Part shown: positions 38,314 to 63,337 of the stretch, one piece after another | How the letters are laid out: each line of letters starts with the position of its first letter | Numbering within the stretch: position 1 is the stretch's first letter | IMG/VR virus record: IMGVR_UViG_3300018080_000002 | Span: 93,358-157,357 of that record | Source: a virus | Strand: one strand, 5' to 3' | DNA length: 64,000 nucleotides | Notes under the pieces: generated by a model | The model's input: only the letters and a program-made list of their open reading frames with translations | The model's database searches: none | Told to the model about the DNA's origin: nothing | Program-made: the position numbers and the translations under genes

Positions 38314-39002
38314 TGGGTGCAAAGGATAAATTCATAGATGCGATTATCAAACTGAACTCCGAAGGTCTCGAAGGTGATGCGAAGGATAATGCTGAGAAAG
38401 ATGCGGAGGCAGAGGCGAAAGCGATTTCGTCGGCTATGCTATTGATGAAAATTCCTCCAGGCGCAATTTGCTCAGAGATGACGATTAGTGGTGCTCCTGG
38501 AGGCGTAAAAAACACGTCTTTGATAAAGTTGGTGGATGCAACTCAAGCAGCTCAAGTACTTAAGTCTGCTTTAGTCGGAATCAATTCTGGAGGTCCACCA
38601 TCGGGTGCATCAAAATTGGTTGGTTGGGCTGAGAAATATGCCGATGCAATTAAAGATTTATGCACAAGCGTTGGCATCCCGAAAGGTTCGATTATTGAGA
38701 ATCCTGCTCCAGCTACAATTACTGTTCCTAACCTACCGTTTCCAATTGCAGATTTAACTGGTGCTTTGGCAAAATTTCAGACAGACTACGTAAAAGTTAA
38801 AAAGGGTGATACGACAGATCCATCTGCGATTGCGAGTATATCGGGGTGGGCTAGTCAAGTTGCATCTGCTATAAGTGCTTTTATGATTACGTTAACCGTA
38901 CCGCCTGGTGTTGGCTTTCTTACGATTTCACAACCCGTACCGCCTGGACCTCCGATTGCAGGCATTCCGAACCCCGTTCCATTGCCTTTGGCAGATTCAT
39001 AA
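38313..39002 (+). CDS. Putative spike-tip protein with three internal repeats
   Basis: A..(I/Y/V)..A(M/I).....(I/V)P.G x3; translationally coupled to spike. Confidence 0.5.
   Translation: MGAKDKFIDAIIKLNSEGLEGDAKDNAEKDAEAEAKAISSAMLLMKIPPGAICSEMTISGAPGGVKNTSLIKLVDATQAAQVLKSALVGINSGGPPSGASKLVGWAEKYADAIKDLCTSVGIPKGSIIENPAPATITVPNLPFPIADLTGALAKFQTDYVKVKKGDTTDPSAIASISGWASQVASAISAFMITLTVPPGVGFLTISQPVPPGPPIAGIPNPVPLPLADS
38416..38429 (+). repeat. Dispersed 14-bp motif CGAAAGCGATTTCG, copy 4
   Basis: Exact copy, read in a different frame (AKAIS) from copies 2, 3 and 5 (ESDF). Confidence 0.85.
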
Positions 39003-39012
39003 TGTTGTAATG

Positions 39013-39042
39013 TTGTTTCAATGTCGTGTATTGTGATAAAAT
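39013..39042 (+). promoter_or_regulatory. Possible extended -10 promoter
   Basis: TTGTTT-N18-TAAAAT with TGn extension, in 80-bp gap with AATGT(T/C)GT repeats. Confidence 0.35.
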
Positions 39043-39082
39043 TAACTCAATTGTTACATCGTGTTTACTCAAGGCAGAATAA

Positions 39083-39451
39083 ATGGCAAAGTATCGAGGG
39101 TTAGCATTTCCAATTCAGAAAGGATCTGATGGCTATCCAAAGATGGTTGAAGATGATGAATTGGTATGGAACGATGTAAAGGCATTGTTCAATACTAGAC
39201 GAAGAGTTCGGGTTATGCGTCCAACCCTGGGCATGTTGCTAGAGGGTATTGTTTTCGATAATACCGGACCATTATTGAATGCTAAGGCTTATAGAGAGAT
39301 TGCTACAGCGTTGGCTAGTTTTGAGCCAAGAGTGACTTTGGAAAGTGTTGGTATTGCAGATGAGGATACTACGGTGACGATTGAAACCATAATCAGCATA
39401 AATGGGTTTAAGTATAAATTGACTCATGCAGTTAGCAGAAATAGGGTGTAA
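39083..39451 (+). CDS. Baseplate gp25/GPW-like protein
   Basis: GLAFP, L..T....RVMRP.LG..L..IVF, AL..FEPRV. Confidence 0.88.
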   Translation: MAKYRGLAFPIQKGSDGYPKMVEDDELVWNDVKALFNTRRRVRVMRPTLGMLLEGIVFDNTGPLLNAKAYREIATALASFEPRVTLESVGIADEDTTVTIETIISINGFKYKLTHAVSRNRV

Positions 39452-39453
39452 AT

Positions 39454-41781: not shown

Positions 41782-41793
41782 TGGGGTTTTGTT

Positions 41794-42234
41794 ATGCCTG
41801 AAACTATGTTGAACAGATATACATATCCAGAATGGGATGCTAAACCGTATTGGGATGTTATAAAGAGTTTTTATGGAGAGCTAGATGTAGCTGTTTATCA
41901 GGCAAAAAACAGGGATCATGCTTTCCTATGTGGGGGTGGATCTCTAACTTGGAACCCGTTGACGTTTACGTTTGCGTGGACGGATGATTTTAAAATTCCA
42001 TTGGTTATGTCTGGCTTTGTTACTAGCGTAGAATATGGTCCTAATGGTACGAGTAGATCTGCTGCAATTCAATCTGGCGAATGTTTGTACTGCGTATTGC
42101 CGACACAAGTAACTGCAAACGTTACTAGAAATGCTGCTGTTGCATCGACTTTATCGAACACCGATAGTAATTTCGTTATTGCTTATAACTGCGATAATAT
42201 TTTGTATGTCCGTAACGGTCAGATTTTAACTTAG
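41794..42234 (+). CDS. Baseplate/tail-associated protein, single copy of a domain repeated in 43568
   Basis: GGG.LTW......W...F.I...IAY....LYVRNG.IL. Confidence 0.55.
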   Translation: MPETMLNRYTYPEWDAKPYWDVIKSFYGELDVAVYQAKNRDHAFLCGGGSLTWNPLTFTFAWTDDFKIPLVMSGFVTSVEYGPNGTSRSAAIQSGECLYCVLPTQVTANVTRNAAVASTLSNTDSNFVIAYNCDNILYVRNGQILT

Positions 42235-42244
42235 GGGATCAGTA

Positions 42245-43102
42245 GTGGCTGGTGGATTTGGAAATCACCCATTTGGAAATGCTCCGTTTGGTAGAGGCGA
42301 CTACTCTCAGGACATTCTGGTAGCCAATTATCCGAGAGAATATTACCAGGATGAGGATGATGTAGAGAATGATCCTGCATATCATTATTTGACTGTTGCG
42401 AAAGAGTCTTTGGACTCTAGGTATGCTGAGGTGGATGCTATGAATACGTTGATGGCTCCATTGGAGATGCCATCAGGTTTGATTCCGTATTTAGCAGATT
42501 CGATCGGTGTAGGTGTTAATGATTATGAGCCTGAAGGGTTTCAGAGATCCATCGTTAACAATGCGGTTAGGTATTACACATTAAAAGGGACGTCTACTGC
42601 ATATAGTATTCGGGGGTTAATGTCTGGTTATGAAGTTGAAGTTTTACAGATGTGGCAAGTTACTCCTGATATTGCGAGTGGAATTGATGACGAATATTTG
42701 AGGCGAATAGGTGATAATTTTTATTCAGAATTAAATCCTACGGAAGTGAGCGGTGTAAGTGGCGATATCCCGTATTATGGAAATTGTGATTTTTGTTTGA
42801 CTGCGTTTGTTGGTATCGTAATGACTTTGAGGCGGGAAGCTCCAGAGGGATACAATGTGTATGTCTTAGACAGGACATTGGATGCTATTAAATCGATTAT
42901 GCCGATTCATGTCCGAGAGTTATTTCTTGAATCGAAGTTGATTTTCAAGGATATTGATATGGCGATTGAAGAAATAAATCAAGAATTTGAAGAAATCTCT
43001 TACAGGAATGTGGGTGTTAATTATTATTACGATTTATGGCCTGCTGATGTGGTTTCGACTGACGTTGGCATAAATGTTCGTGGTTATACACAGGAAATAT
43101 AG
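42245..43102 (+). CDS. Baseplate wedge protein (P2 gpI / gp7-like)
   Basis: LIPYLA..IG......R.....A..YY..KGT, IK..MP.HV. Confidence 0.75.
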   Translation: MAGGFGNHPFGNAPFGRGDYSQDILVANYPREYYQDEDDVENDPAYHYLTVAKESLDSRYAEVDAMNTLMAPLEMPSGLIPYLADSIGVGVNDYEPEGFQRSIVNNAVRYYTLKGTSTAYSIRGLMSGYEVEVLQMWQVTPDIASGIDDEYLRRIGDNFYSELNPTEVSGVSGDIPYYGNCDFCLTAFVGIVMTLRREAPEGYNVYVLDRTLDAIKSIMPIHVRELFLESKLIFKDIDMAIEEINQEFEEISYRNVGVNYYYDLWPADVVSTDVGINVRGYTQEI

Positions 43103-51515: not shown

Positions 51516-53312
51516 ATGACAATTCAATATTTTCAGTTAGCCGACGATTTCGCCAGGAGTAAAATCCGCAGTTTAATTGGCACACAGTTAAAAACCCAGA
51601 TGTATCTGATTGACGATAAGCTGGATTATCCGTTAGCTGTCGAGATCAGTGGCGATACGGTACAGATTGAGGCTGGAGTTAAACAGAAATATACATCTGA
51701 TGGCACAGATGACGGGGTTAGCGGAACGTATAAATGGAGGTTAGCACCGTTGAATGGTGCTGATGTTCAACCGTCTGCGAGCACATTAGATCTTACGGAC
51801 GGTTCAACGACTGGAGATTTTGCCAATAATCCTGCGACTGGTGTGACGATGACTGCTGGATACCATATTCAGATGGGTATCGAGCTTAGGGATGATGGTA
51901 AACACTATGTTGTTTGGGGTGATGAGTCTGCGACATCTGGAGGGACAACGTTTCCGAGGTTTAATTCGGATGCTCTTTCGGTGATGTTGATTCGTTTGGA
52001 AGATAGCGGAAGTGGGGGATCTTGGAATTTCAATACCCCGGATGATTCCGATGTTGAGATTATGCCTGTTGGTGGAGGTGCTGGCGGTGGAGGCGATACG
52101 AGCTTTAAGCTGGCGTCCATGTCTGGTAGCAGTGCCAATTTCAAAAAGGGCTATATCCGTTGGGATGACGGTATTGTATTGGCGGCTGGAGATGTTTCAG
52201 GTTCAGGGGATTTGGAGGATTTTTCGATAGATCTAACGGATCTCATAGCCAGTCCAGACAACAGTTCAACGTACTGGATGTATATAGATATTACGAAATT
52301 ACCAGACGAGAGAACTTACACCGATAATGGCCGAGAGGTATATCCGGTTTACGACGATTCTCATTTTGTTCTGAGAAAAGACATGCCGTTCATGAATCCA
52401 TCAAGGTTTGTTTTTGTTGGTGGATTTAAGACGCCAGGTTCCGGCAATACTTGGGTTGGATCAGAGTTTTGGTCTGCTGCGACTAGGCTGCATACTCAGT
52501 TTGGTGGTTTTATGGCCTTATGCGAGGTGTTTGAGGATACCTCGATTGACGGTGTTTCGGCATCGGTTGCATTGGAGCATGGTTTCAATCCAGATAGACC
52601 GCAGTTGGTGGAGATTGATTTTTACGATGATTCCACAGGCAAGCAGTATCCGCTGCTAAATACTAGCCATGTGTTAGATATAAACACGACGAATATCGTT
52701 GTAAATTCGCTAGGTTTGACATTTGATAGCGGCGACTATTTAGTGGTCAAAGCTTACAGGCTGCCAGAGTTACCGAATACGGTTCTGGATGCTACGAGGG
52801 TTTTTAGATCTTCATGGTACACCGATACATCGACGACTCAAGAGGCTCATGGATTAGATGATAAGCATGAGATTGTGAGTGCTGTTCTTTTAGAATGGGA
52901 TGTGGTTTCAGGCACTATCCGAGAAATCGATCAGGCGAGCTTGGTGAAATGGTGGGATGATGATAACATCTATTATGACTGGACTGGATTGAGTCCATCA
53001 GCCAACCTGAAATATCGGGTGATTACGTCTCCGACCGCTCAACCGTATGCGAAACCGTTCAAAGGAAATGTTTTTACGTTCACCGATGGAGCTACGTTGA
53101 CAAATGTTACGACAGCGTTCCCTTGTGATAAATTGTATTTTGATTTTCCGTTTAGCATACGAGCTGTTCAGAAAATGACGAATGGCTGGCAAAATGTGGA
53201 TAATATTGGTGCATTAGTCTGGGTGACTGATGATGTGAATAAGTATTTGAGGGGGGATATTTCGAGCTTGTCTCCGACATCGACGTACCCCGTCAAGATA
53301 ATGATCGAGTAG
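51516..53312 (+). CDS. Structural/fibre-associated protein
   Basis: MTAGYHI...WGDE module, GGGAGGGG linker, H-G-(F/L) type beta domains. Confidence 0.6.
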   Translation: MTIQYFQLADDFARSKIRSLIGTQLKTQMYLIDDKLDYPLAVEISGDTVQIEAGVKQKYTSDGTDDGVSGTYKWRLAPLNGADVQPSASTLDLTDGSTTGDFANNPATGVTMTAGYHIQMGIELRDDGKHYVVWGDESATSGGTTFPRFNSDALSVMLIRLEDSGSGGSWNFNTPDDSDVEIMPVGGGAGGGGDTSFKLASMSGSSANFKKGYIRWDDGIVLAAGDVSGSGDLEDFSIDLTDLIASPDNSSTYWMYIDITKLPDERTYTDNGREVYPVYDDSHFVLRKDMPFMNPSRFVFVGGFKTPGSGNTWVGSEFWSAATRLHTQFGGFMALCEVFEDTSIDGVSASVALEHGFNPDRPQLVEIDFYDDSTGKQYPLLNTSHVLDINTTNIVVNSLGLTFDSGDYLVVKAYRLPELPNTVLDATRVFRSSWYTDTSTTQEAHGLDDKHEIVSAVLLEWDVVSGTIREIDQASLVKWWDDDNIYYDWTGLSPSANLKYRVITSPTAQPYAKPFKGNVFTFTDGATLTNVTTAFPCDKLYFDFPFSIRAVQKMTNGWQNVDNIGALVWVTDDVNKYLRGDISSLSPTSTYPVKIMIE

Positions 53313-53325
53313 TGGAGGATGAATC

Positions 53326-54828
53326 ATGAGATATTTTTTACTTTTATTAGCGTTTGTTTCTAGTTTCGCCTTTGCTGCGAGAGAGGATTTTGTAATTCCA
53401 GCAAGGGAGGATGGTGGCAATGTCATTATTGCTCCGAAAGATGCCGGAGGTACGTCAAGGACTTTGTTAACTGCTGATCCTGATGCTCAACAGATAACAT
53501 TTGAAAAAAGTTATTTTAACGCCAATTTAGGTATTGGTGTTGCTCCGACATATCCTTTACAGGTTGCCGGATCTGTTAGGTTTCAGAACTCAGGAGATAT
53601 CACAGATTATGCTCATTTTGGAGTTGGTTCTGATGTTTATTTGGATCTGAAAAAAGATGATGGTAGTAAGATATTCTTAAGTACCGGAGGTAATAGCTAT
53701 ATAGATAGTGGATATAATTTTGGGATTGGGACTAGTTCAGTAGACGAGAAGTTACATGTAGAGACTGCGGCAGATAATACAACAATTAAGATTCAGACAG
53801 GCGCAGATGCTAATGCTGTAGTACGCTTCCAAAATGATACTAAATCTTACCTAACAGGAGTATTAGGCGGCACGTCAGATGCCTGGCACGTCTATGATGT
53901 TGATAATACAGCATCGAGGATGACAGTACAAGCTGATGGCGATGTTATCATAAATCAGAGATTAGCAATTGGCGGCTCCTCTCATGTACAGAGACTTACT
54001 GTAGGAAGTTCCTCGTCAACAACAGTCGAGGGGGCCTATTTTGTAAATGATTCTGGAAATATGACCATGGGGGTTAGTCAAGGCGGTGGTTCCTTGTGTC
54101 TAAATGATTCTGATGGTGCTACTGAACTTTGTGCTAGTGGTCAATTAGAGCTTGGTTCTAATAATACTGTCAGGGCAAAGATCGAAACTGATGGTGACCT
54201 TGTTCTATTGAAACGATTGCTTATTGATAGCGTAGGAGTTCAGCCAGAAATATGGTTGGACACACCATCTGGTTCTTATAATGGTCTTATTGGTTTTAGT
54301 GAAAACGGTGTAGACAAATGGAAAATAGACTACAATTATTCAAGTGAAAATCTATCTATTTATAGTAATACTTTAAGCTCAAATATTTTAGAATTTCAAC
54401 CAGGTGGAAGGATAAAAACTGACTATACTGTTGAAATAAATGAAGGGGTTTTTTCTGATAGATTTGAAAAGTCATCTGGTGCTAGTGGTTCCCACGCTAT
54501 CTTTTCCTTGAGTGGGTTTGCTTCTGTCAATTCTGCAGTTAAAATTGATACAGTAACATCATGCACACATGTATCTACATCGAACTACAGGCTGATTCAA
54601 ACAACACTATTAGATCAGTATGTGTCTAGCACATGGACACAAACAGATGTTCATAGCCAGGGGAATGCTGGAATAGTAGGCTATAGCACCACAGGCGATA
54701 CTATTCAGGCTAGGGTGTATTTGGGTGATGGTATCAATATTGTAAAATGTTCACATTCAGTGAATATAATAGCTACATCTACAGATGGCGCTGGGAACAG
54801 AAACGCTATCACATACACAAGACTATAA
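53326..54828 (+). CDS. Fibre-like adhesin with predicted Sec signal peptide
   Basis: MRYFLLLLAFVSSFAFA; GIG...P...L.V and RM.I..DG.V.I fibre repeats. Confidence 0.7.
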   Translation: MRYFLLLLAFVSSFAFAAREDFVIPAREDGGNVIIAPKDAGGTSRTLLTADPDAQQITFEKSYFNANLGIGVAPTYPLQVAGSVRFQNSGDITDYAHFGVGSDVYLDLKKDDGSKIFLSTGGNSYIDSGYNFGIGTSSVDEKLHVETAADNTTIKIQTGADANAVVRFQNDTKSYLTGVLGGTSDAWHVYDVDNTASRMTVQADGDVIINQRLAIGGSSHVQRLTVGSSSSTTVEGAYFVNDSGNMTMGVSQGGGSLCLNDSDGATELCASGQLELGSNNTVRAKIETDGDLVLLKRLLIDSVGVQPEIWLDTPSGSYNGLIGFSENGVDKWKIDYNYSSENLSIYSNTLSSNILEFQPGGRIKTDYTVEINEGVFSDRFEKSSGASGSHAIFSLSGFASVNSAVKIDTVTSCTHVSTSNYRLIQTTLLDQYVSSTWTQTDVHSQGNAGIVGYSTTGDTIQARVYLGDGINIVKCSHSVNIIATSTDGAGNRNAITYTRL

Positions 54829-54839
54829 GGGGAAACAAC

Positions 54840-54953
54840 ATGAAAACAATATTAATGATCATCGGTTTTTTAATTGTGCAAGAAAACCAGATGATGAAAT
54901 CATGGATATGCAACCAATACGATGCGCCTGAAAAACTATGTGTAAATGAATAA
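54840..54953 (+). pseudogene. Internally deleted relic of a signal-peptide/S74 fibre gene
   Basis: MKTILMIIGFLIV joined to QENQMMKSWICNQYDAPEKLC, homologous to the end of 56727. Confidence 0.6.
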
Positions 54954-54963
54954 GGAGATAGAA

Positions 54964-56088
54964 ATGAAAAAGTTGTTTCCATTTATAACGTTATTGGCTC
55001 TGTCTCTTATATCGACAGGAGCAGTAATAAAAGAGAGCAAGCAGGGTGGATCGATTGAATTTTACACGAATGAATCGGGTACTGTTGTTAAAAAAGCCGA
55101 GATTACGGCTGCTGGGAAAATGAAGGTGGATCAAATTGAGAATCTTTCAGGCGGGACACCTCCTGGGATGATTCCGATAGGCGGGATGGTAGCTGTTATG
55201 CCTACAATTCACGCGAACGCTTGGCAGCCTCCAGTAAGCGGGGCCATAAAAGACGGTTTTATGCGTGCTGATGGATGGCAAATCACGGCACAAAACGTCA
55301 CTGACGGATCGTTAATACCAGCCGGAACATATTTACCGAATATGGTTTATATGGTTCCGCGCGGCGATACAGATAGTTGTAATGGCTCATCTGCCTGCAA
55401 TACAAAAACAGGTGGAAGTGATAATGCAACACTGACAATGAATAACATACCAGAGCACAATCACGGAGCGACCGGATTAAGTGGTTCGATGGCCGCAAGT
55501 GAATTTGAGCATAGTCATTCATTGTCAGGAAGTGTTGCAGGTGGAACCGCAAGTTTGACGGGTTCTATAACAAGTGGTGGAGCAAGTTTGAGCGGAAGTG
55601 TTTCTGGGGGAACCGCAAGTGGAACCTTTGCTTCGTCAGGACATACACATGGTTTGGCTTCTGGTGCAGCGGCGATCGGTATGCCTGGAAATACAACAGG
55701 CTATTTAATTTTTTCAAGATCGGGTCAGGCTTTTACTGGCTCATATTATGCATCAATGGCATCAGCATGGGCATCAACAGGAGATAGCCACCTTGGAACG
55801 AACTTAATTGGAACAACCGATGCAAACACGGCGACAGCATCAGTATCATCAACGGCTGCATCGAATGGAACGCTTGGCGTGTCATACACGGCACCAACCA
55901 ATGGAACCCTCGCTGTTTCAAATACCCCTGCAAACAATGGAACGCTCGCAGTTGGAGCCGATAATATTACAACGGCAAGATCGGTTGGGATATCAGGAAA
56001 TACAGCCAACGCAGGGCAAGCCTCTCCAACTGCTGTTGATACGCTTCCTAATTATCAAAAAGTCGTTTGGGTTATTCGAGTATATTAA
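54964..56088 (+). CDS. Collar-domain short fibre (gp12-like) with predicted signal peptide
   Basis: MKKLFPFITLLALSLISTGA; IPIGGMV...GF..ADG collar; GG.....LT..NIPEHNH; HxH motifs; LPNY..V.WVIR. Confidence 0.7.
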   Translation: MKKLFPFITLLALSLISTGAVIKESKQGGSIEFYTNESGTVVKKAEITAAGKMKVDQIENLSGGTPPGMIPIGGMVAVMPTIHANAWQPPVSGAIKDGFMRADGWQITAQNVTDGSLIPAGTYLPNMVYMVPRGDTDSCNGSSACNTKTGGSDNATLTMNNIPEHNHGATGLSGSMAASEFEHSHSLSGSVAGGTASLTGSITSGGASLSGSVSGGTASGTFASSGHTHGLASGAAAIGMPGNTTGYLIFSRSGQAFTGSYYASMASAWASTGDSHLGTNLIGTTDANTATASVSSTAASNGTLGVSYTAPTNGTLAVSNTPANNGTLAVGADNITTARSVGISGNTANAGQASPTAVDTLPNYQKVVWVIRVY

Positions 56089-56104
56089 ATAGAAAGGATA
56101 TAAG

Positions 56105-56341
56105 ATGAAAGCAAGACATTGGGCAATGTTATCAACATTTATAACCGTTATCGTTTCTCTTGCAATTTTCTTGGTAATATGGGGATTAAAAAATCCACCG
56201 GAACCAAAGAAAGTTGGAGAGTTTGAGATTGAAGGAACAAAGACAACTTTATTCCAAGCAGGAGATTGTCAAATATATGTAACAAAGTGGCAAAGTCAAC
56301 CAGAGCCAAGATTTTTCTTCAGTTGTCCACAACGCAAATGA
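56105..56341 (+). CDS. Small membrane-anchored protein
   Basis: N-terminal TM helix; Cys pair. Confidence 0.6.
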   Translation: MKARHWAMLSTFITVIVSLAIFLVIWGLKNPPEPKKVGEFEIEGTKTTLFQAGDCQIYVTKWQSQPEPRFFFSCPQRK

Positions 56342-56349
56342 GGTAAAGT

Positions 56350-56718
56350 ATGAGATATTTAATGTTAGTTTTAATGTTAGTTTTAGTAGGTTGTACTACG
56401 TCTAAATTCAAGAAAGACGTATTAGACAATTTAACCTCTACGTTTGCTGGTCATGGTGAGTGTGGAGGTTATGATGATATGCGTGATGATTTAGATAGTC
56501 TTTTAGATAAATCAAAATGTTTAGAGGACAATGAAATTGCTCCTAATTACATGAAAAGTTTACCAGATGGAGTATGGTCAGCTAAGGCTATGTGTTGTTT
56601 TGCTGTTTTACAGGAGTTAGATTATTCTGATAAAACGGTGAAACCTAAAGATAGTTGGAATTGCAAGAAACCTATCGATTATGAAACGGCATTGTTAGAA
56701 TGTCAGAAATTGGAGTGA
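56350..56718 (+). CDS. Cys-rich lipoprotein
   Basis: MRYLMLVLMLVLVG-C lipobox; six further Cys. Confidence 0.7.
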   Translation: MRYLMLVLMLVLVGCTTSKFKKDVLDNLTSTFAGHGECGGYDDMRDDLDSLLDKSKCLEDNEIAPNYMKSLPDGVWSAKAMCCFAVLQELDYSDKTVKPKDSWNCKKPIDYETALLECQKLE

Positions 56719-56726
56719 GGTGAGTT

Positions 56727-58574
56727 ATGAGAAAATTATGGTTAGCATTAATTTGTTTGCTGTTTACATCGGTAGCGTTTTCCCGTCCTGTGGTGGTGGT
56801 AAACCCAGAGCAGGATGAGGACATTGAGTTTAAGGTGAATGATGGTGGTACTATTAAAGAGGCTTTGAATATAGATGGTGCTACATCTTATGTTAAGGTT
56901 CTTGAGAGACTGGGTATTGGGACTGCGCCATCCGTGACGTTTCATACGGTGGTGTCAGGAAATCATAATATAAGTAGATTGCAGGGTGGTGATTCTAACC
57001 ATACCAGTATCCAGTTGTCAAACTCAGACACTTCTGATTTGTGGGGTTTGGTTAGGGACGGCGGTGATTCTGACAAGTTTAAGATTTACTATAATACGAC
57101 TCCTGGTAATGATTATTTTACAATAAGTACTGATGGAAAAGTTGAGATAGATGGAGCTGGTACTGCTGCATCAGGATATGATTTAAAGGTAAACTCAGTA
57201 GCTACTACTGATGCTGGCGATAACAATTTTATGACTACGTTTTATAACGGGTCTAAAATGATCGGTGGGTTTTATAAAACTCATGCTAATGGGGGTATTT
57301 TAAGCCTTAAGAAAACAGATGGAACATCTAATGGTGTTTGGTTAGCTGGAGGTGCTACTTCCTATTTTGATAATAATGAACAGGGTGTTGCTTTTGGTGA
57401 TGCTGGTAAAGATTCAGATGTCCCGTTTTATTTCAATGCTTATAAGTCTGGTTGTGGTTATGCGTCAGGAGCGAATTACCCGAATGGTACTGTTGCAGCT
57501 TTTAGTAGAGCAGCGACCAACTGTACGGCTGGTATAGCGCAGGTTTATATAACAGGCGGTGGTCCATATGCTTATTTGTATTTAGGTGATCATACGAATC
57601 CATCAAGGGGTGGGATTTTCTACGATACTGATACACTGCATTTGGCTAATGGTGGGAGTGCAGTGAGGATAGATGCGTCTAAAACTGTTGTAGTTAATGG
57701 ATCTAATTTAACTGGTGGTCAGCTTGAGGTACAAAGTACAGGTAATGCTCAATTATCTATAGTGTCTGATAATGACAATAACACAGCGCAGGCTTTTGCT
57801 AGTATTTTCTTTAGTGACTACACTAATGCCAAGGGGGTTATTAGAGGTGACTATGGCGGTGCTAGTGAGGCTTTAAGGATTAACCCTAGTGGATATGGAG
57901 GCAATATATCTCTAGCTGAGGGTGGGGGTAAAGTAGGTTTTGGCGTTAATCCAACGTATTTACATCATGTAGAGTATAACACTAGTACTCGTATGGCTGT
58001 GTTTAAGAATACGAGTACATCTAATGGTCAAATTTTGGGTCTCGAAACAAACATAAATAGTAATTCAAATTTACAACAGATATTTCATATTTATACTCAA
58101 AGAGGTGGTGCTTCAAGTACTGAAATGTACGTTTCCAATAACGGCCAGATTTATGTAGATCCGGATAATTGGGCAACAGGCGGTACTGCAATAGGTGTAA
58201 GTTCAACATCAGGAGGGCATTTAACAACAAGTCCTTCAAGTAGGCGATATAAGGAAAATATAAGTACAGAAAATTTCTATAATGAAATAGATACAAGTAA
58301 GATTTTTGATTTAGAGCCTGTTGTTTTCGATTATAAGGTGGATGGTAGGCATTCCTTTGGCTACATAGCTGAAGATGTTTATCCCAATGTCCCAAGTGTT
58401 GTTTATATTGCAGAGCAAGAGGATGGTTCAAGGCAGATTGAATCTGTGGATTATAGAATGCTGTCAGTGCTCATTATTGAAGAATTTAAAAAGACTAAAA
58501 AAGAAAATGAATTAATGAAATCATGGATTTGTTCTCAAGATAATGCTCCAGAAGCATTATGCGTAGGTTATTAG
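56727..58574 (+). CDS. Trimeric fibre adhesin with signal peptide and C-terminal peptidase S74 (intramolecular chaperone) domain
   Basis: MRKLWLALICLLFTSVAFS; fibre repeats; SSRRYKENI...L.PV.F.YK...GYIAEDV...SVDY..L. Confidence 0.85.
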   Translation: MRKLWLALICLLFTSVAFSRPVVVVNPEQDEDIEFKVNDGGTIKEALNIDGATSYVKVLERLGIGTAPSVTFHTVVSGNHNISRLQGGDSNHTSIQLSNSDTSDLWGLVRDGGDSDKFKIYYNTTPGNDYFTISTDGKVEIDGAGTAASGYDLKVNSVATTDAGDNNFMTTFYNGSKMIGGFYKTHANGGILSLKKTDGTSNGVWLAGGATSYFDNNEQGVAFGDAGKDSDVPFYFNAYKSGCGYASGANYPNGTVAAFSRAATNCTAGIAQVYITGGGPYAYLYLGDHTNPSRGGIFYDTDTLHLANGGSAVRIDASKTVVVNGSNLTGGQLEVQSTGNAQLSIVSDNDNNTAQAFASIFFSDYTNAKGVIRGDYGGASEALRINPSGYGGNISLAEGGGKVGFGVNPTYLHHVEYNTSTRMAVFKNTSTSNGQILGLETNINSNSNLQQIFHIYTQRGGASSTEMYVSNNGQIYVDPDNWATGGTAIGVSSTSGGHLTTSPSSRRYKENISTENFYNEIDTSKIFDLEPVVFDYKVDGRHSFGYIAEDVYPNVPSVVYIAEQEDGSRQIESVDYRMLSVLIIEEFKKTKKENELMKSWICSQDNAPEALCVGY

Positions 58575-58638
58575 TAACGTTGTTTTGATGAATTACTGAG
58601 TGTATTGCTTAGTAAGAAACATTTTAAAGGAGTAAATT

Positions 58639-58842
58639 ATGAAAGAGAAATTGTCATTACCTACGTTTGTTGTTGTAATTTTTTTGGCTGGATGTTTGTT
58701 TGGCGCTCATTCTTTGTATTTGCATTTAAAGATTGATAGTGCGCTGTCAAACCATGCTGCATTACAGAAAGGTGTTGAGGGATTTGCCAAACAGGTCAAT
58801 GACGAGTTTAAGAAGCGCCCTGTAAAAGATGACAAAAAATAG
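58639..58842 (+). CDS. Small membrane protein (possible lipobox LAGC)
   Basis: Hydrophobic N-term then short helix; AAGGAG RBS. Confidence 0.55.
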   Translation: MKEKLSLPTFVVVIFLAGCLFGAHSLYLHLKIDSALSNHAALQKGVEGFAKQVNDEFKKRPVKDDKK

Positions 58843-58851
58843 GATTGGTAG

Positions 58852-59139
58852 ATGAGTGGACCTGCACAAAATTGCAAGTTTGATATTCCGGGTAGGTTTC
58901 CGCTCAAAGCTACCGATGTTAGAGAGATAAGTGTACTCCGCCTTCGTATTCCAGCATTAAGCGAGGTAGGAGTACAGGTTCATAACAGGGCTATATTGAA
59001 CCCGATATTTAAGAGGTTTGATAACTGGTGGGTTGATGCTATGGGTTCAGTGGATGTCCGTTATGATTTTGATTTTGTAGAGGCGATTCTCAGAAACGTG
59101 ACAGACTGTGATTTGGATATTTTGATCAGGATATTGTAG
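58852..59139 (+). CDS. Hypothetical (putative structural) protein
   Basis: 95-aa beta-rich ORF. Confidence 0.45.
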   Translation: MSGPAQNCKFDIPGRFPLKATDVREISVLRLRIPALSEVGVQVHNRAILNPIFKRFDNWWVDAMGSVDVRYDFDFVEAILRNVTDCDLDILIRIL

Positions 59140-59141
59140 AA

Positions 59142-59627
59142 ATGGTTCAAGGACAATGTGTACCGTACACGTTTGCAGACGAATTTCAGAGAATCAGAGA
59201 GTGTCTAGCCGAGCTAGGTTGCACTCCGAGTGATGGTTCTACGACTGGTGTACCTATCGATATCCGAACCAGTGGTCGTGTAGATATTTCTGGAGATTCA
59301 TTTCAGACTGTTTTGGAGTGGTGTATTCCTGACAATCAGAAGTTTCAGTTAAAACATTTTTATGTAAGTTTACTTGGGTTTTCAGGCGAAGTGGTTGTCG
59401 ATTACACTAGAGATAAGATAAACTATGAATTGATACGCAGTTATATTTTGAATGTCCAGAGTCCTAATTTTGAGGAAAATTTAGCTGGCTGTATTACAAA
59501 GTTTCCTAAAATATCTGATGAATACAGTTGTTTTCGTATTAGGGCTAAGATGAATGGTGGAGCATGCACAAACCTAGAAGGTACTGTGTTTGCTGCTATA
59601 AATGGTTTCCTACTTCCGTACCCGTAG
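59142..59627 (+). CDS. Putative decoration protein, beta-sandwich
   Basis: C-term domain parallels 59697 (ends AAINGF vs GRINGY). Confidence 0.5.
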   Translation: MVQGQCVPYTFADEFQRIRECLAELGCTPSDGSTTGVPIDIRTSGRVDISGDSFQTVLEWCIPDNQKFQLKHFYVSLLGFSGEVVVDYTRDKINYELIRSYILNVQSPNFEENLAGCITKFPKISDEYSCFRIRAKMNGGACTNLEGTVFAAINGFLLPYP

Positions 59628-59696
59628 ATTGTTCAGACGTTTAGGTTATTGGTTTTTTCTTAATTAATCTATGGTCATATCAGATGGAGGTAGCAC

Positions 59697-60431
59697 ATGA
59701 ATGATCTAGGTACAGTAATTTCCCGTTATAGGGACACATTGTCGGCATACTGTGACAATCAGTATGTTCCGATTGCGGTCGATCCTTATGGAAGGATCGT
59801 TTTTACTCACGAAGAATCAAGTGTAAGTGGTAGTGGTCTTTATTCGTCTGTCAGGATTGGCGACGGTACGGATCTGTTAGATGTTATCAATTATGGTGAT
59901 ACGGTCAGTGGCAACACAGGTCTTATTGTTTATGGGGAGGATGAAAGTGGTAATGCTTATCCGATTCCTATTGACAATGATAGGGTTAAAGTTGTTCTTC
60001 CTGATCAGCCTATTGGTGTTAGCGGTACTATCAATGTCGATTTTACTCCTGGTACGGAAGGTGATACGCACAGTGATGAAGCTGGTGCAAATACAGAGCC
60101 AGGTGTTGTCGATAGCGTTGGAACATCGACTTGGGTGGATGTTGTTTCTGTGCCTGTCGGTGCTGGTACGACATACAACCTATTAGGCGTTCATTACACA
60201 GCGGACAGGACGTCTCAGTTCCGTCTAATAGTAGAGGATAATGGTACTCCTGCTGAGTATATTGGAAACTGGATTGCGACACAGAACGTAGCTAGTTATG
60301 ACATGCAGCTCCAGAGAGCGAGAGAGATTGCTGGTGCTGCTAATAGGATTATTAAGCTACAGGCGATTCGTTTGGCTGCTTGTACTGTTGATGCTAATGT
60401 CTCAGGCCGTATTAATGGTTATACCGAATAA
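59697..60431 (+). CDS. Putative decoration/fibre protein
   Basis: P..VD..GR repeats, 4 VSG, GGAGG RBS. Confidence 0.55.
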   Translation: MNDLGTVISRYRDTLSAYCDNQYVPIAVDPYGRIVFTHEESSVSGSGLYSSVRIGDGTDLLDVINYGDTVSGNTGLIVYGEDESGNAYPIPIDNDRVKVVLPDQPIGVSGTINVDFTPGTEGDTHSDEAGANTEPGVVDSVGTSTWVDVVSVPVGAGTTYNLLGVHYTADRTSQFRLIVEDNGTPAEYIGNWIATQNVASYDMQLQRAREIAGAANRIIKLQAIRLAACTVDANVSGRINGYTE

Positions 60432-60476
60432 CGTTAGGTATTTTTGGTTATTGAGGATTCGATGTTGATTTTTCAG

Positions 60477-60497
60477 GGGGAGTTGTTCTAGCTCCCC
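60477..60497 (+). terminator. Intergenic stem-loop
   Basis: GGGGAGTT-GTTCT-AGCTCCCC. Confidence 0.4.
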
Positions 60498-60518
60498 TCG
60501 ACATATGTTTTGGGGTTT

Positions 60519-60878
60519 ATGATGTCTGAATTGTCTAAAATTGTTGAAACTTTAAAATCGTCTCCGGTTCCTTTGGTTGATTCTGATGAGGGTTGGGAGA
60601 CTGTTGATGAGATAGCTTTGACGCCAAAGACTGGTATAGAGATGAAAAAGATACATATCCAGGGTGCTCCTGGTTCGTTGGTTCGTATCAGGTCAGAGGC
60701 CATTAAGGGCAAATCCTACGATGCTACGATTTGGAAATATAAAAGTCGAGGTATCCCGAAAACGTTTGATTTAGATGGCTACGATTGTGGTGGTCACGAT
60801 GTTAGGCGTATAAAGATTCAGCGTCTTATAGGTAATGAGTGTGAGGCGAAGATAGAATACAAGCGTCACGGAGATTAG
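60519..60878 (+). CDS. Hypothetical protein
   Basis: Beta-rich, about 119 aa. Confidence 0.45.
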   Translation: MMSELSKIVETLKSSPVPLVDSDEGWETVDEIALTPKTGIEMKKIHIQGAPGSLVRIRSEAIKGKSYDATIWKYKSRGIPKTFDLDGYDCGGHDVRRIKIQRLIGNECEAKIEYKRHGD

Positions 60879-60881
60879 TAG

Positions 60882-61211
60882 ATGTATGATGTCCAGACTG
60901 AGATAGTTGACTCATTGATATCTGAGCACTATGAGGGTTCGGTTAGTGGTATTGGTGCGGTTGTGGATATTGCAAGCACAAAAGTTGTTCGTGGCGGTTT
61001 AGTTTATAATCCTACGGTTGGTCCTAATGCGACTACTAACGGGGTTAATAAGTATATCAGGGTGAGCTTAGACGGTGGTAGCGGTTGGATTACCATCCCA
61101 TATGGAGGCAAACTGTGCTTTGGTATTAGACCTGATGACGACACAGTTAAGATAGATGCTGGAGTAAGTGGCGGCATTGGTTATGAAGTAGTGTTGGCGG
61201 TGGAAAAATGA
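60882..61211 (+). CDS. Putative structural protein
   Basis: Beta-rich, 2 VSG. Confidence 0.5.
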   Translation: MYDVQTEIVDSLISEHYEGSVSGIGAVVDIASTKVVRGGLVYNPTVGPNATTNGVNKYIRVSLDGGSGWITIPYGGKLCFGIRPDDDTVKIDAGVSGGIGYEVVLAVEK

Positions 61212-61705
61212 GAAATCACCCAATTTGTTTGCATACGGTTCCTAGAGCTGGAGAGGTTCCTACTGAATATGTAAGTGGAATTCCTGAGGATGTTGATAAT
61301 GTTCAGGAGTTTTTGGAGTATTTGCTAACAATAGCTGGTATCTCTGCGTCTCCAGGTTTTACATGGGGTCGATCTGGAAATGTTGTTTCTAATTCATGGC
61401 TTTTGAATGATACGGTTCCGTCAAATTTGACTGGTAGAACTGTGTTTATTTATAACGCAGAGGTAATTCAATTTTTCACATCGAATCAAGATGATCCTTC
61501 GACATATACGCTGGGATTGTATGAACATGATGGTGTTACATATACGTTATTGGAGACTATCGCTGTTGTTGGTGCGAGGACGGCGACTAAGGATTTGACT
61601 GGAGTGTACCCAACAAAGGGTAATGAGTTGGCGGTTAAAGTGGAGAGTGGATCAGGTAAGAACATAACTTGTGGTGTTCTTATGAAAGGGACATTAGTGC
61701 CATGA
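61208..61705 (+). CDS. Putative trimeric decoration/fibre protein
   Basis: DNVQEFLEYL trimer-neck motif; C-domain paralogous to 61702. Confidence 0.5.
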   Translation: MRNHPICLHTVPRAGEVPTEYVSGIPEDVDNVQEFLEYLLTIAGISASPGFTWGRSGNVVSNSWLLNDTVPSNLTGRTVFIYNAEVIQFFTSNQDDPSTYTLGLYEHDGVTYTLLETIAVVGARTATKDLTGVYPTKGNELAVKVESGSGKNITCGVLMKGTLVP

Positions 61706-62499
61706 AACGAATTAAGTACGTTGGTCCTGGTGACTTTTATGAGATTCCTGAAGTCGGAGAGACTGTTAGCGGTACTAGTTTTTATGAAACTGGATACCGT
61801 GAGATTCACCCGACTATATATCCGTATTATGCTGATGCTGCTTATATCACTGATTCTACGTTGGTTTCTGGCATTGATATGGAATATTTAGTTATTAATG
61901 ACGGAGAGTTGGATGTAGCGGTTAGTGGTGTTGGAAATCAGTATGATGGTGTAGGAACTGAGAAACATGGGTTTGCCAGGGACTACATGAAATACCCTGA
62001 TGAGGCGTTTAATGTTAGGTTTAGATCTAGTCCTGAGCGATTGAATGGGTTTGAGTCTAAAGATGTTCAGAGAGCAATAGAGGAATCTAAGCAGTCGGCG
62101 TTTGGAAACGATTCTGATACGTTACAGTTTGCAAAACAGGGATCGTCTAGTAATAACACGTATTTGCTGACGCTGAATAATATTTCGGGTAATGATTCAC
62201 CTGATCATGTGCCGTGGGATGTTTTGTTTTTAAGATGGTCAGTAGCGACTGCTGCTGCTCCACCGGCTCCGTTTACGTTGGCTCTGTGGAAAATCAATCC
62301 AGATCATTCAGTGGCATCGATTGTATATACAGAGACGTTTTCTATTACTAACGGTAATTTTACGGGACATTCAGGCTATACGCTGTCAAATCAGAATATT
62401 GTTATTGAAAAAGGGTATGGTATTTATGTTCAGGTTACAGCTGTAGGCAATCCGAAGCCTACAGATTTGAACGTACTTTGTTGGACTAGGAGGTTGTAA
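61702..62499 (+). CDS. Putative trimeric decoration/fibre protein
   Basis: KDVQRAIEE motif; 3 VSG; start moved to ATG 61702. Confidence 0.5.
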   Translation: MKRIKYVGPGDFYEIPEVGETVSGTSFYETGYREIHPTIYPYYADAAYITDSTLVSGIDMEYLVINDGELDVAVSGVGNQYDGVGTEKHGFARDYMKYPDEAFNVRFRSSPERLNGFESKDVQRAIEESKQSAFGNDSDTLQFAKQGSSSNNTYLLTLNNISGNDSPDHVPWDVLFLRWSVATAAAPPAPFTLALWKINPDHSVASIVYTETFSITNGNFTGHSGYTLSNQNIVIEKGYGIYVQVTAVGNPKPTDLNVLCWTRRL

Positions 62500-62500
62500 G

Positions 62501-63337
62501 ATGTCTTTTAATGCGTGTTATGTGAAGCAGGTAACTTATGAGTCTAGGACATATTACAACAAAGTCTTTGATCTGAATGAGGAATACCTGATACCTGATT
62601 CTGACAGAATTGGGTTTATGAGTAACCTTGCATTGTTATCTGATGTTGTTAGTGGTGCAGCTTTAATAGGAAATGGGACTGAGTATTTTGATGATATTGG
62701 TTTCCAGTTAGATTGGTTGAGAAATAGGGATATTAATGCGCGAGACGATGAGAATCACTTAGAAATTAAGCAGGTGATGGCCAAGGATACATATCATTAT
62801 GAGCCGCGATCGTTGGACTTTACAACTGCCAAATATAACTCTCTTTATAATAGAAAACACGATGGAAATTGTATTCCTGACGGAACGGATTACGGTGATG
62901 CGTTCATGTATTTCTATAACGTCAGTGGCGTAGCGATGGAGAGAGATGACTATGATAGCGATGAGGATTTTCAGTTAGCGTTATCGAATAGCGTGAGTGG
63001 TTGTTGTAAGACGGTCGTTAAATTTATTCCTGACTATGATTATTCGATCAAGTCAGGTGTTTTGATGCTGGCTGAAGAGTGGGATTATGATGGATATGTT
63101 TGGTGTTTATTGGCTCCAGATATTCCGGAGGCATGGGGTGGTCAAGCTCCGTTTTTGGCTGGCGGGTATAATATGAGATTTTTTCCTGCCCGTTCGTATA
63201 TTCGCATGGATGGACAGACGACTTTCCATATACTACAGGATTTAGTTTACTATTCGCACGTTATAGGATTAGTCGTAAAACACGATCCTGGGGATCAAAA
63301 AGGTATCCAGATGATTTACGAGCACTATAAGGAATAG
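62501..63337 (+). CDS. Putative structural protein
   Basis: 278 aa; 3 VSG. Confidence 0.5.
   Translation: MSFNACYVKQVTYESRTYYNKVFDLNEEYLIPDSDRIGFMSNLALLSDVVSGAALIGNGTEYFDDIGFQLDWLRNRDINARDDENHLEIKQVMAKDTYHYEPRSLDFTTAKYNSLYNRKHDGNCIPDGTDYGDAFMYFYNVSGVAMERDDYDSDEDFQLALSNSVSGCCKTVVKFIPDYDYSIKSGVLMLAEEWDYDGYVWCLLAPDIPEAWGGQAPFLAGGYNMRFFPARSYIRMDGQTTFHILQDLVYYSHVIGLVVKHDPGDQKGIQMIYEHYKE

What the first reader, a model, noticed from the sequence alone, without database searches (positions are those of the whole stretch)
53326..58842. Exported fibre-adhesin island: tail-fibre-like proteins with signal peptides
Seen: 53326, 54964 and 56727 have fibre architecture (GIG repeats, collar domain, S74 chaperone) yet begin with basic-hydrophobic signal-like peptides. 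54964 and 56727 then share an IEFxxNxxGT module, weaker in 53326. They carry closely spaced Cys pairs and are VSG-poor (3 in about 1,500 aa). Their neighbours are a TM protein, a Cys-rich lipoprotein and another membrane protein. Established: virion fibres fold in the cytoplasm without signal peptides, whereas Bdellovibrio uses exported trimeric S74-containing fibres (MAT adhesins) for prey recognition. The tail ENELMKSWICSQDNAPEALC resembles, from memory, C-termini of such proteins. Inference: the phage either remodels the host surface (prey range, exclusion) or matures its receptor-binding fibres in the periplasm; the host may be a predatory Bdellovibrionota-type bacterium.
Basis: partly seen in the sequence, partly recalled or inferred. 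Interest (0 to 1): 0.8.

Follow-up and report, generated by a model that had tools for sequence, protein, structure and literature searches.

The report
Phage tail-fibre genes carrying export signals
A large uncultured phage encodes, inside its tail-fibre genes, a conserved set of three fibre proteins, a lipoprotein and two small membrane proteins that all carry bacterial export signals, so these fibres probably fold outside the cytoplasm where phage particles are built, which is not described for tailed phages.

Summary
The window is the last 64 kb of a complete 157-kb myovirus-type virus record. Six consecutive genes (53326-58842) are the only ones in its 85 genes with export signals. They are three fibre proteins with signal-peptidase-I-type leaders, a lipobox lipoprotein and two bitopic membrane proteins.

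Protein 56727 has a real S74 chaperone domain. The "collar" call for 54964 is not confirmed.

The module recurs in the same order in three other uncultured phage lineages. Only the leader plus a 40-75-residue N-terminal module is conserved; the distal parts are swapped.

Two results argue for real export. Signal-bearing relatives have even cysteine counts. A C-terminal Cys-x(8-10)-Cys tail occurs only with a signal peptide.

Between two related siphovirus-like contigs, one 790-residue tail-module protein occurs with and without the leader.

My best reading (about 0.4) is that the fibres mature in the periplasm and join the virion at lysis. The main rival (about 0.33) is exported fibres that never join the virion.

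Nothing supports a Bdellovibrio-type host or the remembered MAT-like C-terminus.

Earlier follow-ups of this scan reported export signals on phage fibres in other genomes. Four full-text searches found no published description.

The parts
51516..53312 (+). Conserved 598-aa protein with no signal peptide. It directly precedes the exported module in all four lineages and is a candidate virion docking partner (inferred).
   Evidence: Full-length orthologs have 62, 48 and 37% identity in L009, L012 and L006. No Pfam or PHROG hit. The nearest Atlas clusters are viral tail proteins, but the scores are below 0.9.
53326..54828 (+). Fibre A, 500 aa. Signal peptide in residues 1-17 (AFA|A), N-module IPAREDGGNVIIAPKDAGGT, GIG motifs, and four Cys (258/269 and 413/475).
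   Evidence: The N-terminal 55-300 residues are 31-62% identical to the position-A proteins of L009 and L012, and the rest is unrelated. The middle part is 60% identical to P0219, a signal-bearing protein of a siphovirus-like contig.
54840..54953 (+). 37-codon relic ORF. It is the 3' end of an ancestral S74/Cys-tail version of gene A, left behind by a cassette replacement. It has its own SD; expression is unknown.
   Evidence: It aligns with the C-terminal tails of 56727 and of P0031 in L009 (A5). The DNA junction up to the RBS of gene B is nearly identical to L009 (A11). tblastn also finds the tail in L003, L011 and L016.
54964..56088 (+). Fibre B, 374 aa. Signal peptide in residues 1-20, N-module VIKESKQGGSIEFYTNESGT, a conserved PIGGMVAVMP...AWQPP...KDGFMRADG domain, three HxH motifs, a Gly/Ser/Thr-rich shaft, the C-terminal motif VVWVIRVY, and one Cys pair (139/145).
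   Evidence: It has 67 homologs, of which 52 or more have a signal peptide. The AF2 model has pLDDT 57, with residues 80-130 above 84. Fold matches to phage fibre tips are weak. No Pfam Collar hit.
56105..56341 (+). 78-aa bitopic membrane protein with an N-terminal anchor and a roughly 45-aa outside domain holding two Cys. It is co-inherited with the B-type head, so it is a candidate membrane-tethered fibre chaperone (inferred).
   Evidence: A 57%-identical homolog lies next to the collar-type signal-bearing fibres in L014. A weaker homolog lies in an uncalled ORF between two such genes in L015.
56350..56718 (+). 122-aa Cys-rich lipoprotein with lipobox LVGC and six further Cys. It is a conserved member of the module, lying between B and C.
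   Evidence: Homologs sit at the same position in L012 (37%) and L006 (25%), with all six Cys aligned (A2 and A7). No relative was found in genome contigs, Pfam, NCBIfam or PDB.
56727..58574 (+). Fibre C, 615 aa. Signal peptide in residues 1-19, N-module NPEQDEDIEFKVNDGGT, GIG motifs, a Cys pair at 243/266, and an S74 chaperone running from Ser504 to the end.
   Evidence: The exhaustive HMMER search gave 1,204 hits, mostly to S74 alone. The N-terminal 72-114 residues are 37-49% identical to the position-C proteins of L009, L006 and L012.
58236..58574 (+). S74 intramolecular chaperone of fibre C (SSRRYK Ser/Lys motif) plus the C-terminal tail WICSQDNAPEALC (Cys602/Cys612). Autocleavage would release this part.
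   Evidence: Pfam PF13884. Ser and Lys are invariant in A6. Among the 149 best S74 hits, the tail occurs in 12; 10 of these have a clear signal peptide, one is a fragment and one has a miscalled start (Fisher p 1.4e-6).
58639..58842 (+). 67-aa membrane protein (about 24 hydrophobic residues, or an LAGC lipobox) with a charged helical C-terminus. It is the last gene of the island. It may be holin- or spanin-like, which was not tested.
   Evidence: No family hit and no homolog in the fetched loci.
58852..63337 (+). Downstream flank of conserved genes without signal peptides, colinear with L009. It marks the right border of the variable island.
   Evidence: Full-length orthologs have 42-68% identity in L009. 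No PHROG or Pfam hits.

Best explanation
The island is a phage-encoded export module.

Fibres A, B and C would be made late, together with the tail genes. The host Sec system would move them unfolded across the inner membrane, and signal peptidase I would cut off the leader. In the periplasm they would trimerise and form disulfides. Fibre C would use its own S74 chaperone, which then cuts itself off at Ser504. The collar-like head of fibre B would be helped by the co-inherited membrane-tethered 56105 protein. The Cys-rich lipoprotein would act as holder or helper.

The fibres would stay in the periplasm until the lysis proteins breach the inner membrane. Their conserved 40-75-residue N-modules would then dock onto finished particles, perhaps on the conserved 51516-type protein. 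They would act as exchangeable receptor-binding fibres.

Shown here:
- the export signals;
- the fibre domains;
- conservation of the module and its gene order;
- swapping of the distal domains;
- the cysteine statistics;
- gain or loss of the leader on an orthologous tail-module protein.

Inferred:
- export and leader cleavage themselves;
- disulfide formation;
- the helper roles of 56105 and 56350;
- the docking partner;
- above all, attachment to the virion.
For: 1. Textbook leaders on six adjacent genes and on no other gene of the window, all with SD sites.

2. The same order A, B, lipoprotein, C, directly after a 51516-type gene, in L009/L010, L006-L008 and L012. Flanking genes are full-length orthologs, whereas island genes share only the leader plus the N-module. 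This is the mosaic typical of receptor-binding proteins.

3. Distal parts move between positions. The S74 end of window C matches the S74 end of L009 A at 43%, and a relic of the old A terminus survives at 54840.

4. Signs of an oxidising compartment. Mature parts of signal-bearing relatives have even Cys counts 52 times and odd counts 12 times, against 37 and 60 for relatives without a signal (Fisher 5.8e-8). The Cys-x(8-10)-Cys tail is tied to the signal peptide (p 1.4e-6).

5. Signal-bearing fibres sit where receptor-binding proteins are normally encoded in other phage types. In L016, all eight genes after the tape-measure and tip genes carry leaders. P0157 lies between the portal and adaptor genes of a podovirus-like contig.

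6. L016 5999 and L014 6562 are orthologs, 37% identical over 775 residues. The L016 copy starts with a 20-residue leader. The L014 copy has a stop codon just before its ATG. The protein's place of work must therefore be reachable from either compartment, meaning after lysis.

7. The same head types also occur on relatives without a signal that have ordinary fibre N-termini.
Against: - No tailed phage is known to add exported parts to its virion. Particles form in the cytoplasm, and dilution at lysis would slow docking.
- No virion proteome, host or cultured relative exists for any of these phages.
- The phage keeps fibre candidates without signal peptides (43568, 48815, 51516), so the exported ones are not needed as its only fibres.
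- In L003, four paralogous signal-bearing fibres lie among replication and sugar-modifying genes, next to an exported nuclease lipoprotein, not in a virion module.
- The genome encodes many other exported proteins that are clearly not virion parts, including a GH18 lipoprotein and a CAP-domain lipoprotein.
- All known signal-bearing proteins encoded in the tail regions of model phages (lambda Lom and Bor, T5 Llp) are non-virion proteins (established knowledge).
- The signal peptides were judged by rule, not by SignalP.
Confidence: 0.42

Rival explanations
1. The fibres are exported but never join the virion. They act on or in the envelope of the infected cell, or as free proteins after lysis. 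Possible roles are masking receptors on the cell or its debris (superinfection exclusion or protection of progeny), or MAT-like adhesins tethered through the N-module to the lipoprotein or membrane partners.
For: - Export signals sit on the fibres and on their three small partners.
- The lipoprotein correlates with the N-module set rather than with the head type.
- The L003 context lies among non-structural and sugar-modifying genes, with an exported SNase lipoprotein.
- The phage has a large further repertoire of exported proteins.
- L015 has signal-bearing and signal-less collar-type proteins side by side, as expected if only the latter are virion parts.
- Precedents exist: lambda Lom and Bor, T5 Llp (PMC9586334) and Bdellovibrio MAT fibres (PMC10769870).
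Against: - The genes appear co-transcribed with late tail genes. Gaps are tight and there is no terminator at the island borders. That is late for exclusion.
- No route across an outer membrane is evident.
- Free masking fibres would not need three strictly conserved N-modules.
- The leader is gained or lost on an orthologous tail-module protein, and an envelope-anchored role cannot tolerate that.
Confidence: 0.33
2. The hydrophobic N-termini are not export signals. The proteins are ordinary cytoplasmic tail fibres, and their N-termini are buried anchors in the baseplate or transient membrane tethers.
For: No experimental or SignalP evidence was available. Virion fibres normally fold in the cytoplasm. 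N-termini of fibres are usually docking domains.
Against: - The leaders have the full n-h-c layout: 10-13-residue cores and small residues at -3 and -1. The neighbours carry lipoboxes.
- Leader sequences drift while keeping their hydrophobicity, and the conserved module starts right after the cleavage site.
- The Cys parity and the tie between the Cys tail and the leader are hard to explain in the cytoplasm.
- An ortholog works without the segment.
Confidence: 0.07
3. The island is a recent capture of bacterial surface-fibre genes (MAT-like) from a predatory Bdellovibrionota-type host.
For: The layout resembles MAT fibres: signal peptide, conserved N-terminal module, variable fibre, and S74 or other tip. 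There are also capping-loop-like GIG motifs.
Against: - The Cys-tail motif has no match, and the lipoprotein no relative, in one genome each of 185,579 species.
- All contexts that could be read are phage-like.
- The module is old within phages: same order, 25-62% identity, and it occurs in myo-, sipho- and podovirus-like contigs.
- The N-module has about 40-75 conserved residues, against about 130 in MATs.
- GC content and GC skew in the island are like the rest of the window.
Confidence: 0.04

Closest known systems
Tail fibres and spikes with a C-terminal S74 intramolecular chaperone (K1F endosialidase, T5 L-shaped fibre pb1)
   Same: Fibre C ends in a Pfam-positive S74 domain with the catalytic Ser and Lys. 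It follows a beta-rich fibre with GIG or capping-loop motifs and lies in a tail-fibre module.
   Different: Fibre C starts with a cleavable-looking Sec leader. Its chaperone carries an extra Cys-x10-Cys tail that is found only in signal-bearing relatives. The gene travels with a lipoprotein and membrane proteins. The Asp of the SDxxxK motif is Ser here.
Bdellovibrio bacteriovorus MAT (mosaic adhesive trimer) fibres, PMC10769870
   Same: Signal peptide, then a conserved N-terminal module, then a variable trimeric fibre ending in S74 or another tip. Tip swapping occurs, and so do capping-loop-like motifs.
   Different: These proteins are encoded by phages, not by a predator's chromosome. The conserved N-module is about 40-75 residues rather than about 130. 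No sequence link to MATs was shown. No relative of the tail motif or of the partner lipoprotein was found in bacterial genomes.
Signal-bearing proteins encoded in the tail regions of model phages (lambda Lom and Bor, T5 Llp next to pb5; PMC9586334)
   Same: Exported proteins or lipoproteins encoded beside receptor-binding genes. Protein 56350 is a small Cys-containing lipoprotein next to fibre genes, as Llp is.
   Different: Those are small single proteins, not fibres. They have no conserved N-module with a variable head. No sequence similarity of 56350 to any PDB chain, Llp included, was found.
Fibre tip plus downstream chaperone pairs (T4 gp37 with gp38, lambda Stf with Tfa)
   Same: The B-type head, with its collar-like stretch and HxH motifs, is followed by a small gene that is co-inherited with that head in three lineages.
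   Different: The small protein is a bitopic membrane protein with a domain facing outward, not a cytoplasmic chaperone. Pfam Collar is not detected. The fold match to the gp37 tip is weak (Z 3.2).
Adsorption protein pIII of filamentous Ff phages
   Same: A virion receptor-binding protein made with a Sec leader and periplasmic disulfides.
   Different: Ff particles are assembled at, and extruded through, the envelope. Tailed phages assemble in the cytoplasm. There is no homology.

Membership tests
Peptidase_S74 intramolecular-chaperone fibres | C-terminal S74 domain above the Pfam gathering score | tested here: met
   56727 residues 504-559 score 26.6 bits against a cut-off of 22, and 31.2 bits in the genome search, where it is the only copy in the genome. 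Proteins 53326 and 54964 have none.
Peptidase_S74 intramolecular-chaperone fibres | Catalytic Ser and Lys (SDxxxK) | tested here: met
   SSRRYK at residue 504. Ser and Lys are invariant in six signal-bearing relatives (A6). Asp is replaced by Ser here. Cleavage itself was not tested.
Peptidase_S74 intramolecular-chaperone fibres | Cytoplasmic folding and incorporation into the virion | not testable with these tools
   No cultured relative and no proteome exist. The leader argues against cytoplasmic folding.
Bdellovibrio MAT fibres | Signal peptide followed by a conserved N-terminal domain | tested here: inconclusive
   A leader and a conserved N-module are present (A3). However, the module is about 40-75 residues, not about 130. 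No MAT N-domain sequence was at hand to compare.
Bdellovibrio MAT fibres | Encoded in the genome of a predatory bacterium | tested here: not met
   The genes lie on a complete virus record. Relatives lie in phage-like contigs. There is no match to the tail motif or the partner lipoprotein in 185,579 species genomes.
Bdellovibrio MAT fibres | Capping-loop motif V-G-G/N-small-x-x-P-x-x-x-L | tested here: inconclusive
   LGIGVAPTYPL, LGIGTAPSVTF and VGFGVNPTYLH fit except at position 3, and at the last position in two of them (motif taken).
Phage tail collar domain fibres (PF07484; T4 gp37 type) | Collar domain detectable by profile | tested here: not met
   54964 has no hit at E 0.1. Only 1 of 49 family members hits Collar, and it does so in a region that does not align with 54964. 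A PDB profile search found nothing.
Phage tail collar domain fibres (PF07484; T4 gp37 type) | Fold like a solved fibre tip | tested here: inconclusive
   The best VIA matches are T4 gp37 tip (Z 3.2), cyanophage A-1(L) fibre (Z 3.0) and a T4 baseplate chain (Z 2.8). All are below Z 5, on a model with pLDDT 57.
Llp/Cor-type exclusion lipoproteins | Small lipoprotein encoded beside the receptor-binding gene | tested here: met
   Lipobox LVGC; the gene lies between fibres B and C in three lineages.
Llp/Cor-type exclusion lipoproteins | Sequence or functional relation to Llp | tested here: inconclusive
   No PDB, Pfam or NCBIfam match. Function was not testable.
Sec/signal peptidase I substrates | n-, h- and c-regions with small residues at -3 and -1, and an h-region too short for a membrane span | tested here: met
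   Read directly from the sequence for 53326, 54964 and 56727, and conserved in the positional orthologs. This is a rule-based reading; SignalP was not available.

The most novel reading that the evidence does not exclude
Tailed phages of several morphotypes build part of their host-recognition apparatus in a second compartment. Fibres are exported by Sec and oxidatively folded in the periplasm, with self-contained (S74) or membrane-tethered helpers. They are bolted onto cytoplasm-built particles only when lysis merges the two compartments.
Probability: 0.4. Interest if true: 0.88.

Novelty: new variant of a known kind. Interest (0 to 1): 0.68.

Why it matters
Textbook assembly of tailed phages happens entirely in the cytoplasm. 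A conserved, exchangeable set of exported, disulfide-bonded fibres would mean one of two things. Either there is a two-compartment assembly route, or there is a widespread class of phage-made envelope fibres that has not been studied.

Either outcome bears on several things:
- how host range is encoded and predicted from metagenomes;
- how fibres for phage engineering should be expressed (in the periplasm rather than the cytoplasm);
- what phage-encoded lipoproteins next to fibre genes do.

The module gives concrete handles for testing: three N-modules, a lipoprotein, a head-linked membrane protein, and an ortholog pair with and without the leader.

Tried and rejected
**Searches for relatives**
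- Megablast and tblastn against 50,697 phage records found nothing. The only exception was the S74 stretch, which matched Streptomyces phages.
- A word-indexed homolog search with 56727 found only itself.
- An IMG/VR scan for the 51516 family found nothing. The metagenome scan gave one locus, L012.
- Two alignments were too divergent to scan genome contigs. The Cys-tail DNA pattern and the lipoprotein profile found nothing there.

**Structure and fold**
- The single-sequence AF2 model of 56727 was useless (pLDDT 35).
- Foldseek on the fibre B model gave no match at E 0.001 or better.
- PDB sequence searches with 56727, the B family and the lipoprotein gave nothing meaningful.
- Atlas look-ups for 51516 and 56350 stayed below 0.9.
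The planned test of the A N-module trimer against the 51516 protein was therefore not run.

**Host**
- Gln at +1, the Bacteroidota Q-rule (PMC10653852), is absent from the three window fibres. By eye it is present in only about a quarter of the leaders in related loci. I draw no host call from this.

**Rejected links and other negatives**
- The NlpC/P60 lysin that follows the module in L006 and L012 has no counterpart in this genome.
- The BppL_N hits in two B-family members lie in a shaft motif, not in the N-module, so they are not a link to baseplate docking.
- The Collar hit of P0201 lies outside the region it shares with 54964.
- The sigma-70 promoter scan was at shuffle level.
- Four full-text literature searches found the MAT paper but no report of Sec leaders on fibres of tailed phages.

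Full report
**What the window is.** The window is the last 64 kb of a complete 157,357-bp virus record with direct terminal repeats. All long ORFs lie on the + strand, and GC skew is strongly positive throughout. Genes at 37237-43102 match a baseplate hub, a gp6-like wedge and P2 gpI. Genes at 43568 and 48815 match tail-fibre and minor-tail families. The finding therefore sits in the tail-fibre part of a myovirus-type genome. Neither DNA nor protein matches any cultured phage, apart from the S74 stretch.

**Checking the observation.**
- *Starts.* The three large ORFs start at 53326, 54964 and 56727, each with a Shine-Dalgarno site.
- *Leaders.* Their N-termini have the classic layout of signal-peptidase-I substrates. 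There are one or two basic residues, a hydrophobic core of 10-13 residues (too short to span a membrane), and small residues at -3 and -1 (AFA|A, TGA|V, AFS|R).
- *Small neighbours.* Protein 56350 has a lipobox (LVGC). Proteins 56105 and 58639 have hydrophobic stretches of about 23-24 residues after a basic start, so they are bitopic membrane proteins. 58639 could alternatively be read as an LAGC lipobox.
- *Clustering.* A simple hydrophobicity scan of all 240 called ORFs of the genome flags these six and no other gene in the window. The chance that six of 85 genes are adjacent is 1.8e-7.
- *Fibre features.* Pfam confirms S74 in 56727, with the Ser/Lys motif SSRRYK at residue 504.
- *Shared module.* The shared module after the leader is real, and in weaker form all three proteins have it (A3).
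- *VSG.* The island has 3 VSG in 1,762 residues. The flanking tail genes have 46 in 6,275, where about 4 are expected from composition.
- *Collar domain.* The collar label for 54964 is the one item not borne out. Pfam sees nothing. A model built on 49 relatives is confident only for residues 80-130 and the C-terminus. Its best fold matches are all weak (Z 3.2 and below). They are nonetheless all phage fibre tips: T4 gp37, cyanophage A-1(L) and a T4 baseplate chain.

**The island is a conserved module.** Exhaustive HMMER with 56727 gave 1,204 hits, mostly to the S74 domain alone. Reading the contigs of the closest full-length relatives revealed the pattern.

L009/L010 are colinear relatives of this phage. 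Flanking genes are full-length orthologs at 42-68% identity. The island genes match only in the leader plus the first 55-75 residues, or about 300 residues for A.

Two further lineages, L006-L008 and L012, have the same order: a 51516-type gene, fibres A and B, a Cys-rich lipoprotein with all six Cys aligned, then fibre C. In these two lineages the module is followed by a single-span protein and an NlpC/P60 lysin.

The distal parts differ in every lineage and move between positions:
- The S74 end of window C matches the S74 end of L009 A at 43% identity.
- In L012, proteins A and C share a different C-terminal domain.
- In the window, a 37-codon ORF at 54840 is the leftover 3' end of an S74/Cys-tail version of gene A. 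The DNA from the tail to the ribosome-binding site of gene B is nearly identical to L009.

The small membrane protein 56105 travels with the B-type head. It has a 57%-identical homolog beside collar-type leader-bearing fibres in L014, and a weaker homolog in an uncalled ORF between two such genes in L015.

**Is the export real?** No experiment or trained predictor was available, so I looked for independent marks of an oxidising compartment.
- *The Cys tail.* Among the 149 best S74 hits, 12 carry a C-terminal Cys-x(8-10)-Cys tail. Ten of these have a clear leader, one is a fragment and one has a miscalled start. Only 20 of the 137 hits without the tail have a leader (Fisher p 1.4e-6).
- *Cysteine parity.* In the mature parts of leader-bearing relatives of fibres B and C, Cys counts are even 52 times and odd 12 times. 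Relatives without a leader give 37 even and 60 odd (Fisher 5.8e-8). All five Cys-containing island proteins are even.
- *The B family.* At least 52 of the 67 homologs carry a leader.
- *Leader drift.* Leaders drift in sequence while keeping their form, and the conserved module begins right after the cleavage site.

I take export and disulfide bonding as likely (about 0.85), though not shown.

**Where else it occurs.** Leader-bearing fibres are found in other phage types at the place where receptor-binding proteins are normally encoded.
- In L016, a tape-measure gene and tip genes are followed by eight genes that all carry leaders or lipoboxes. One of them is an S74 protein with the Cys tail.
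- P0157 lies between the portal and adaptor genes of a 40.9-kb podovirus-like contig.
- L011 has three in a row.
- L003 is different. Four paralogous leader-bearing fibres and an exported nuclease lipoprotein lie among replication and sugar-modifying genes.
- L015 has leader-bearing and leaderless collar-type proteins side by side.

**A telling pair.** L016 5999 and L014 6562 are orthologs, 37% identical over 775 residues. The L016 copy begins with a 20-residue leader. The L014 copy has a stop codon directly before its ATG. A protein that works with or without export must act somewhere that can be reached from both compartments, and that means after lysis.

**Explanation and rivals.** I hold the first tier with high confidence. 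This is a phage module of Sec-exported, periplasm-folded fibres with their own helpers.

The second tier, the fibres' destination, is open. I favour arming of the virion at lysis (0.42), for these reasons:
- the genes are placed among tail genes and appear co-transcribed with them (tight gaps, no terminator at the borders);
- the proteins have the mosaic of receptor-binding proteins;
- three related N-modules in a fixed order call for a conserved docking partner;
- the leader can be gained or lost on an ortholog.

Against this reading: no such route is known, the phage keeps leaderless fibre candidates, the L003 context is not structural, and the genome exports many proteins that are clearly not virion parts. 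These include a GH18 plus beta-helix lipoprotein, a CAP-domain lipoprotein, a lipocalin-like lipoprotein and a collagen-repeat lipoprotein.

The main rival (0.33) is that the fibres never join the virion. They would mask receptors, or serve as adhesins tethered by the lipoprotein or membrane partners, as lambda Lom and Bor, T5 Llp and the Bdellovibrio MAT fibres suggest. A non-export reading gets 0.07.

- the tail motif has no match in one genome each of 185,579 species;
- the lipoprotein has no relative there;
- all contexts that could be read are phage-like;
- the MAT comparison rests on layout only.

The host remains unknown. The Bacteroidota Q-rule (PMC10653852) is not followed by the three window fibres. 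I judged this by eye only.

**Novelty.** S74 fibres, fibre-plus-chaperone pairs and exported MAT fibres are known. The following are not described in the papers I could search:
- a conserved phage module that puts Sec leaders on three fibres;
- a Cys-tailed S74 chaperone;
- a head-linked membrane protein and a partner lipoprotein.

Earlier follow-ups of this scan noted leader-bearing phage fibres in other genomes. Those notes are unchecked leads and agree in kind. The module structure, the Cys statistics and the ortholog pair were worked out here. I class the finding as a new variant of a known kind, with interest 0.68.

Noticed in passing
window 54840-54953: A 37-codon ORF with its own Shine-Dalgarno site. 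It is the relic 3' end of an S74/Cys-tail gene. Its hydrophobic start followed by the Cys loop could still make a small membrane peptide.
   Followed up: partly
window 39454-63337: VSG tripeptides are about 12-fold over expectation in the leaderless tail and fibre proteins (46 seen, about 4 expected). In the exported island they are near expectation (3 seen, 1.3 expected).
   Followed up: partly
window 1-64000: Every ORF of 150 aa or more is on the + strand, and GC skew is +0.15 to +0.34 in all 2-kb bins. That is an unusually strong and uniform strand asymmetry.
   Followed up: no
G000:C1:74711-77571 (L020): Two adjacent lipoproteins outside the window. One has a CAP (cysteine-rich secretory protein) domain. 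The other has a GH18 chitinase-type domain followed by a beta-helix.
   Followed up: partly
G000:C1:5487-6032, 56856-57269, 59224-60084, 64873-65976: Further exported proteins of the same phage: a collagen-repeat lipoprotein, a lipocalin-like lipoprotein, and two leader-bearing paralogs that share a PENDLHLED motif. About one ORF in ten of this genome has an export-type N-terminus.
   Followed up: partly
L003:10001-15053: A phage contig (this copy 59 kb; the protein also lies on a 207-kb contig) has four paralogous leader-bearing fibres with one shared N-module (SGDLILDA) and an exported SNase-domain lipoprotein. They lie among DNA-ligase, DndB and sugar-nucleotide genes rather than tail genes.
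   Followed up: partly
L016:5999-14440: In a siphovirus-like contig, eight consecutive genes after the tape-measure and tip genes all carry leaders or lipoboxes. They include a Peptidase_C1 lipoprotein and a proline-rich lipoprotein.
   Followed up: partly
L006:14581-17676: A 1,031-aa helicase gene in the related phage carries intein-splicing, LAGLIDADG and HNH hits, which suggests one or two inteins.
   Followed up: no
window 39454-41781: The gp6-like wedge protein carries a long C-terminal coiled-coil stretch that hits tape-measure and Baculo_PEP_C profiles.
   Followed up: no
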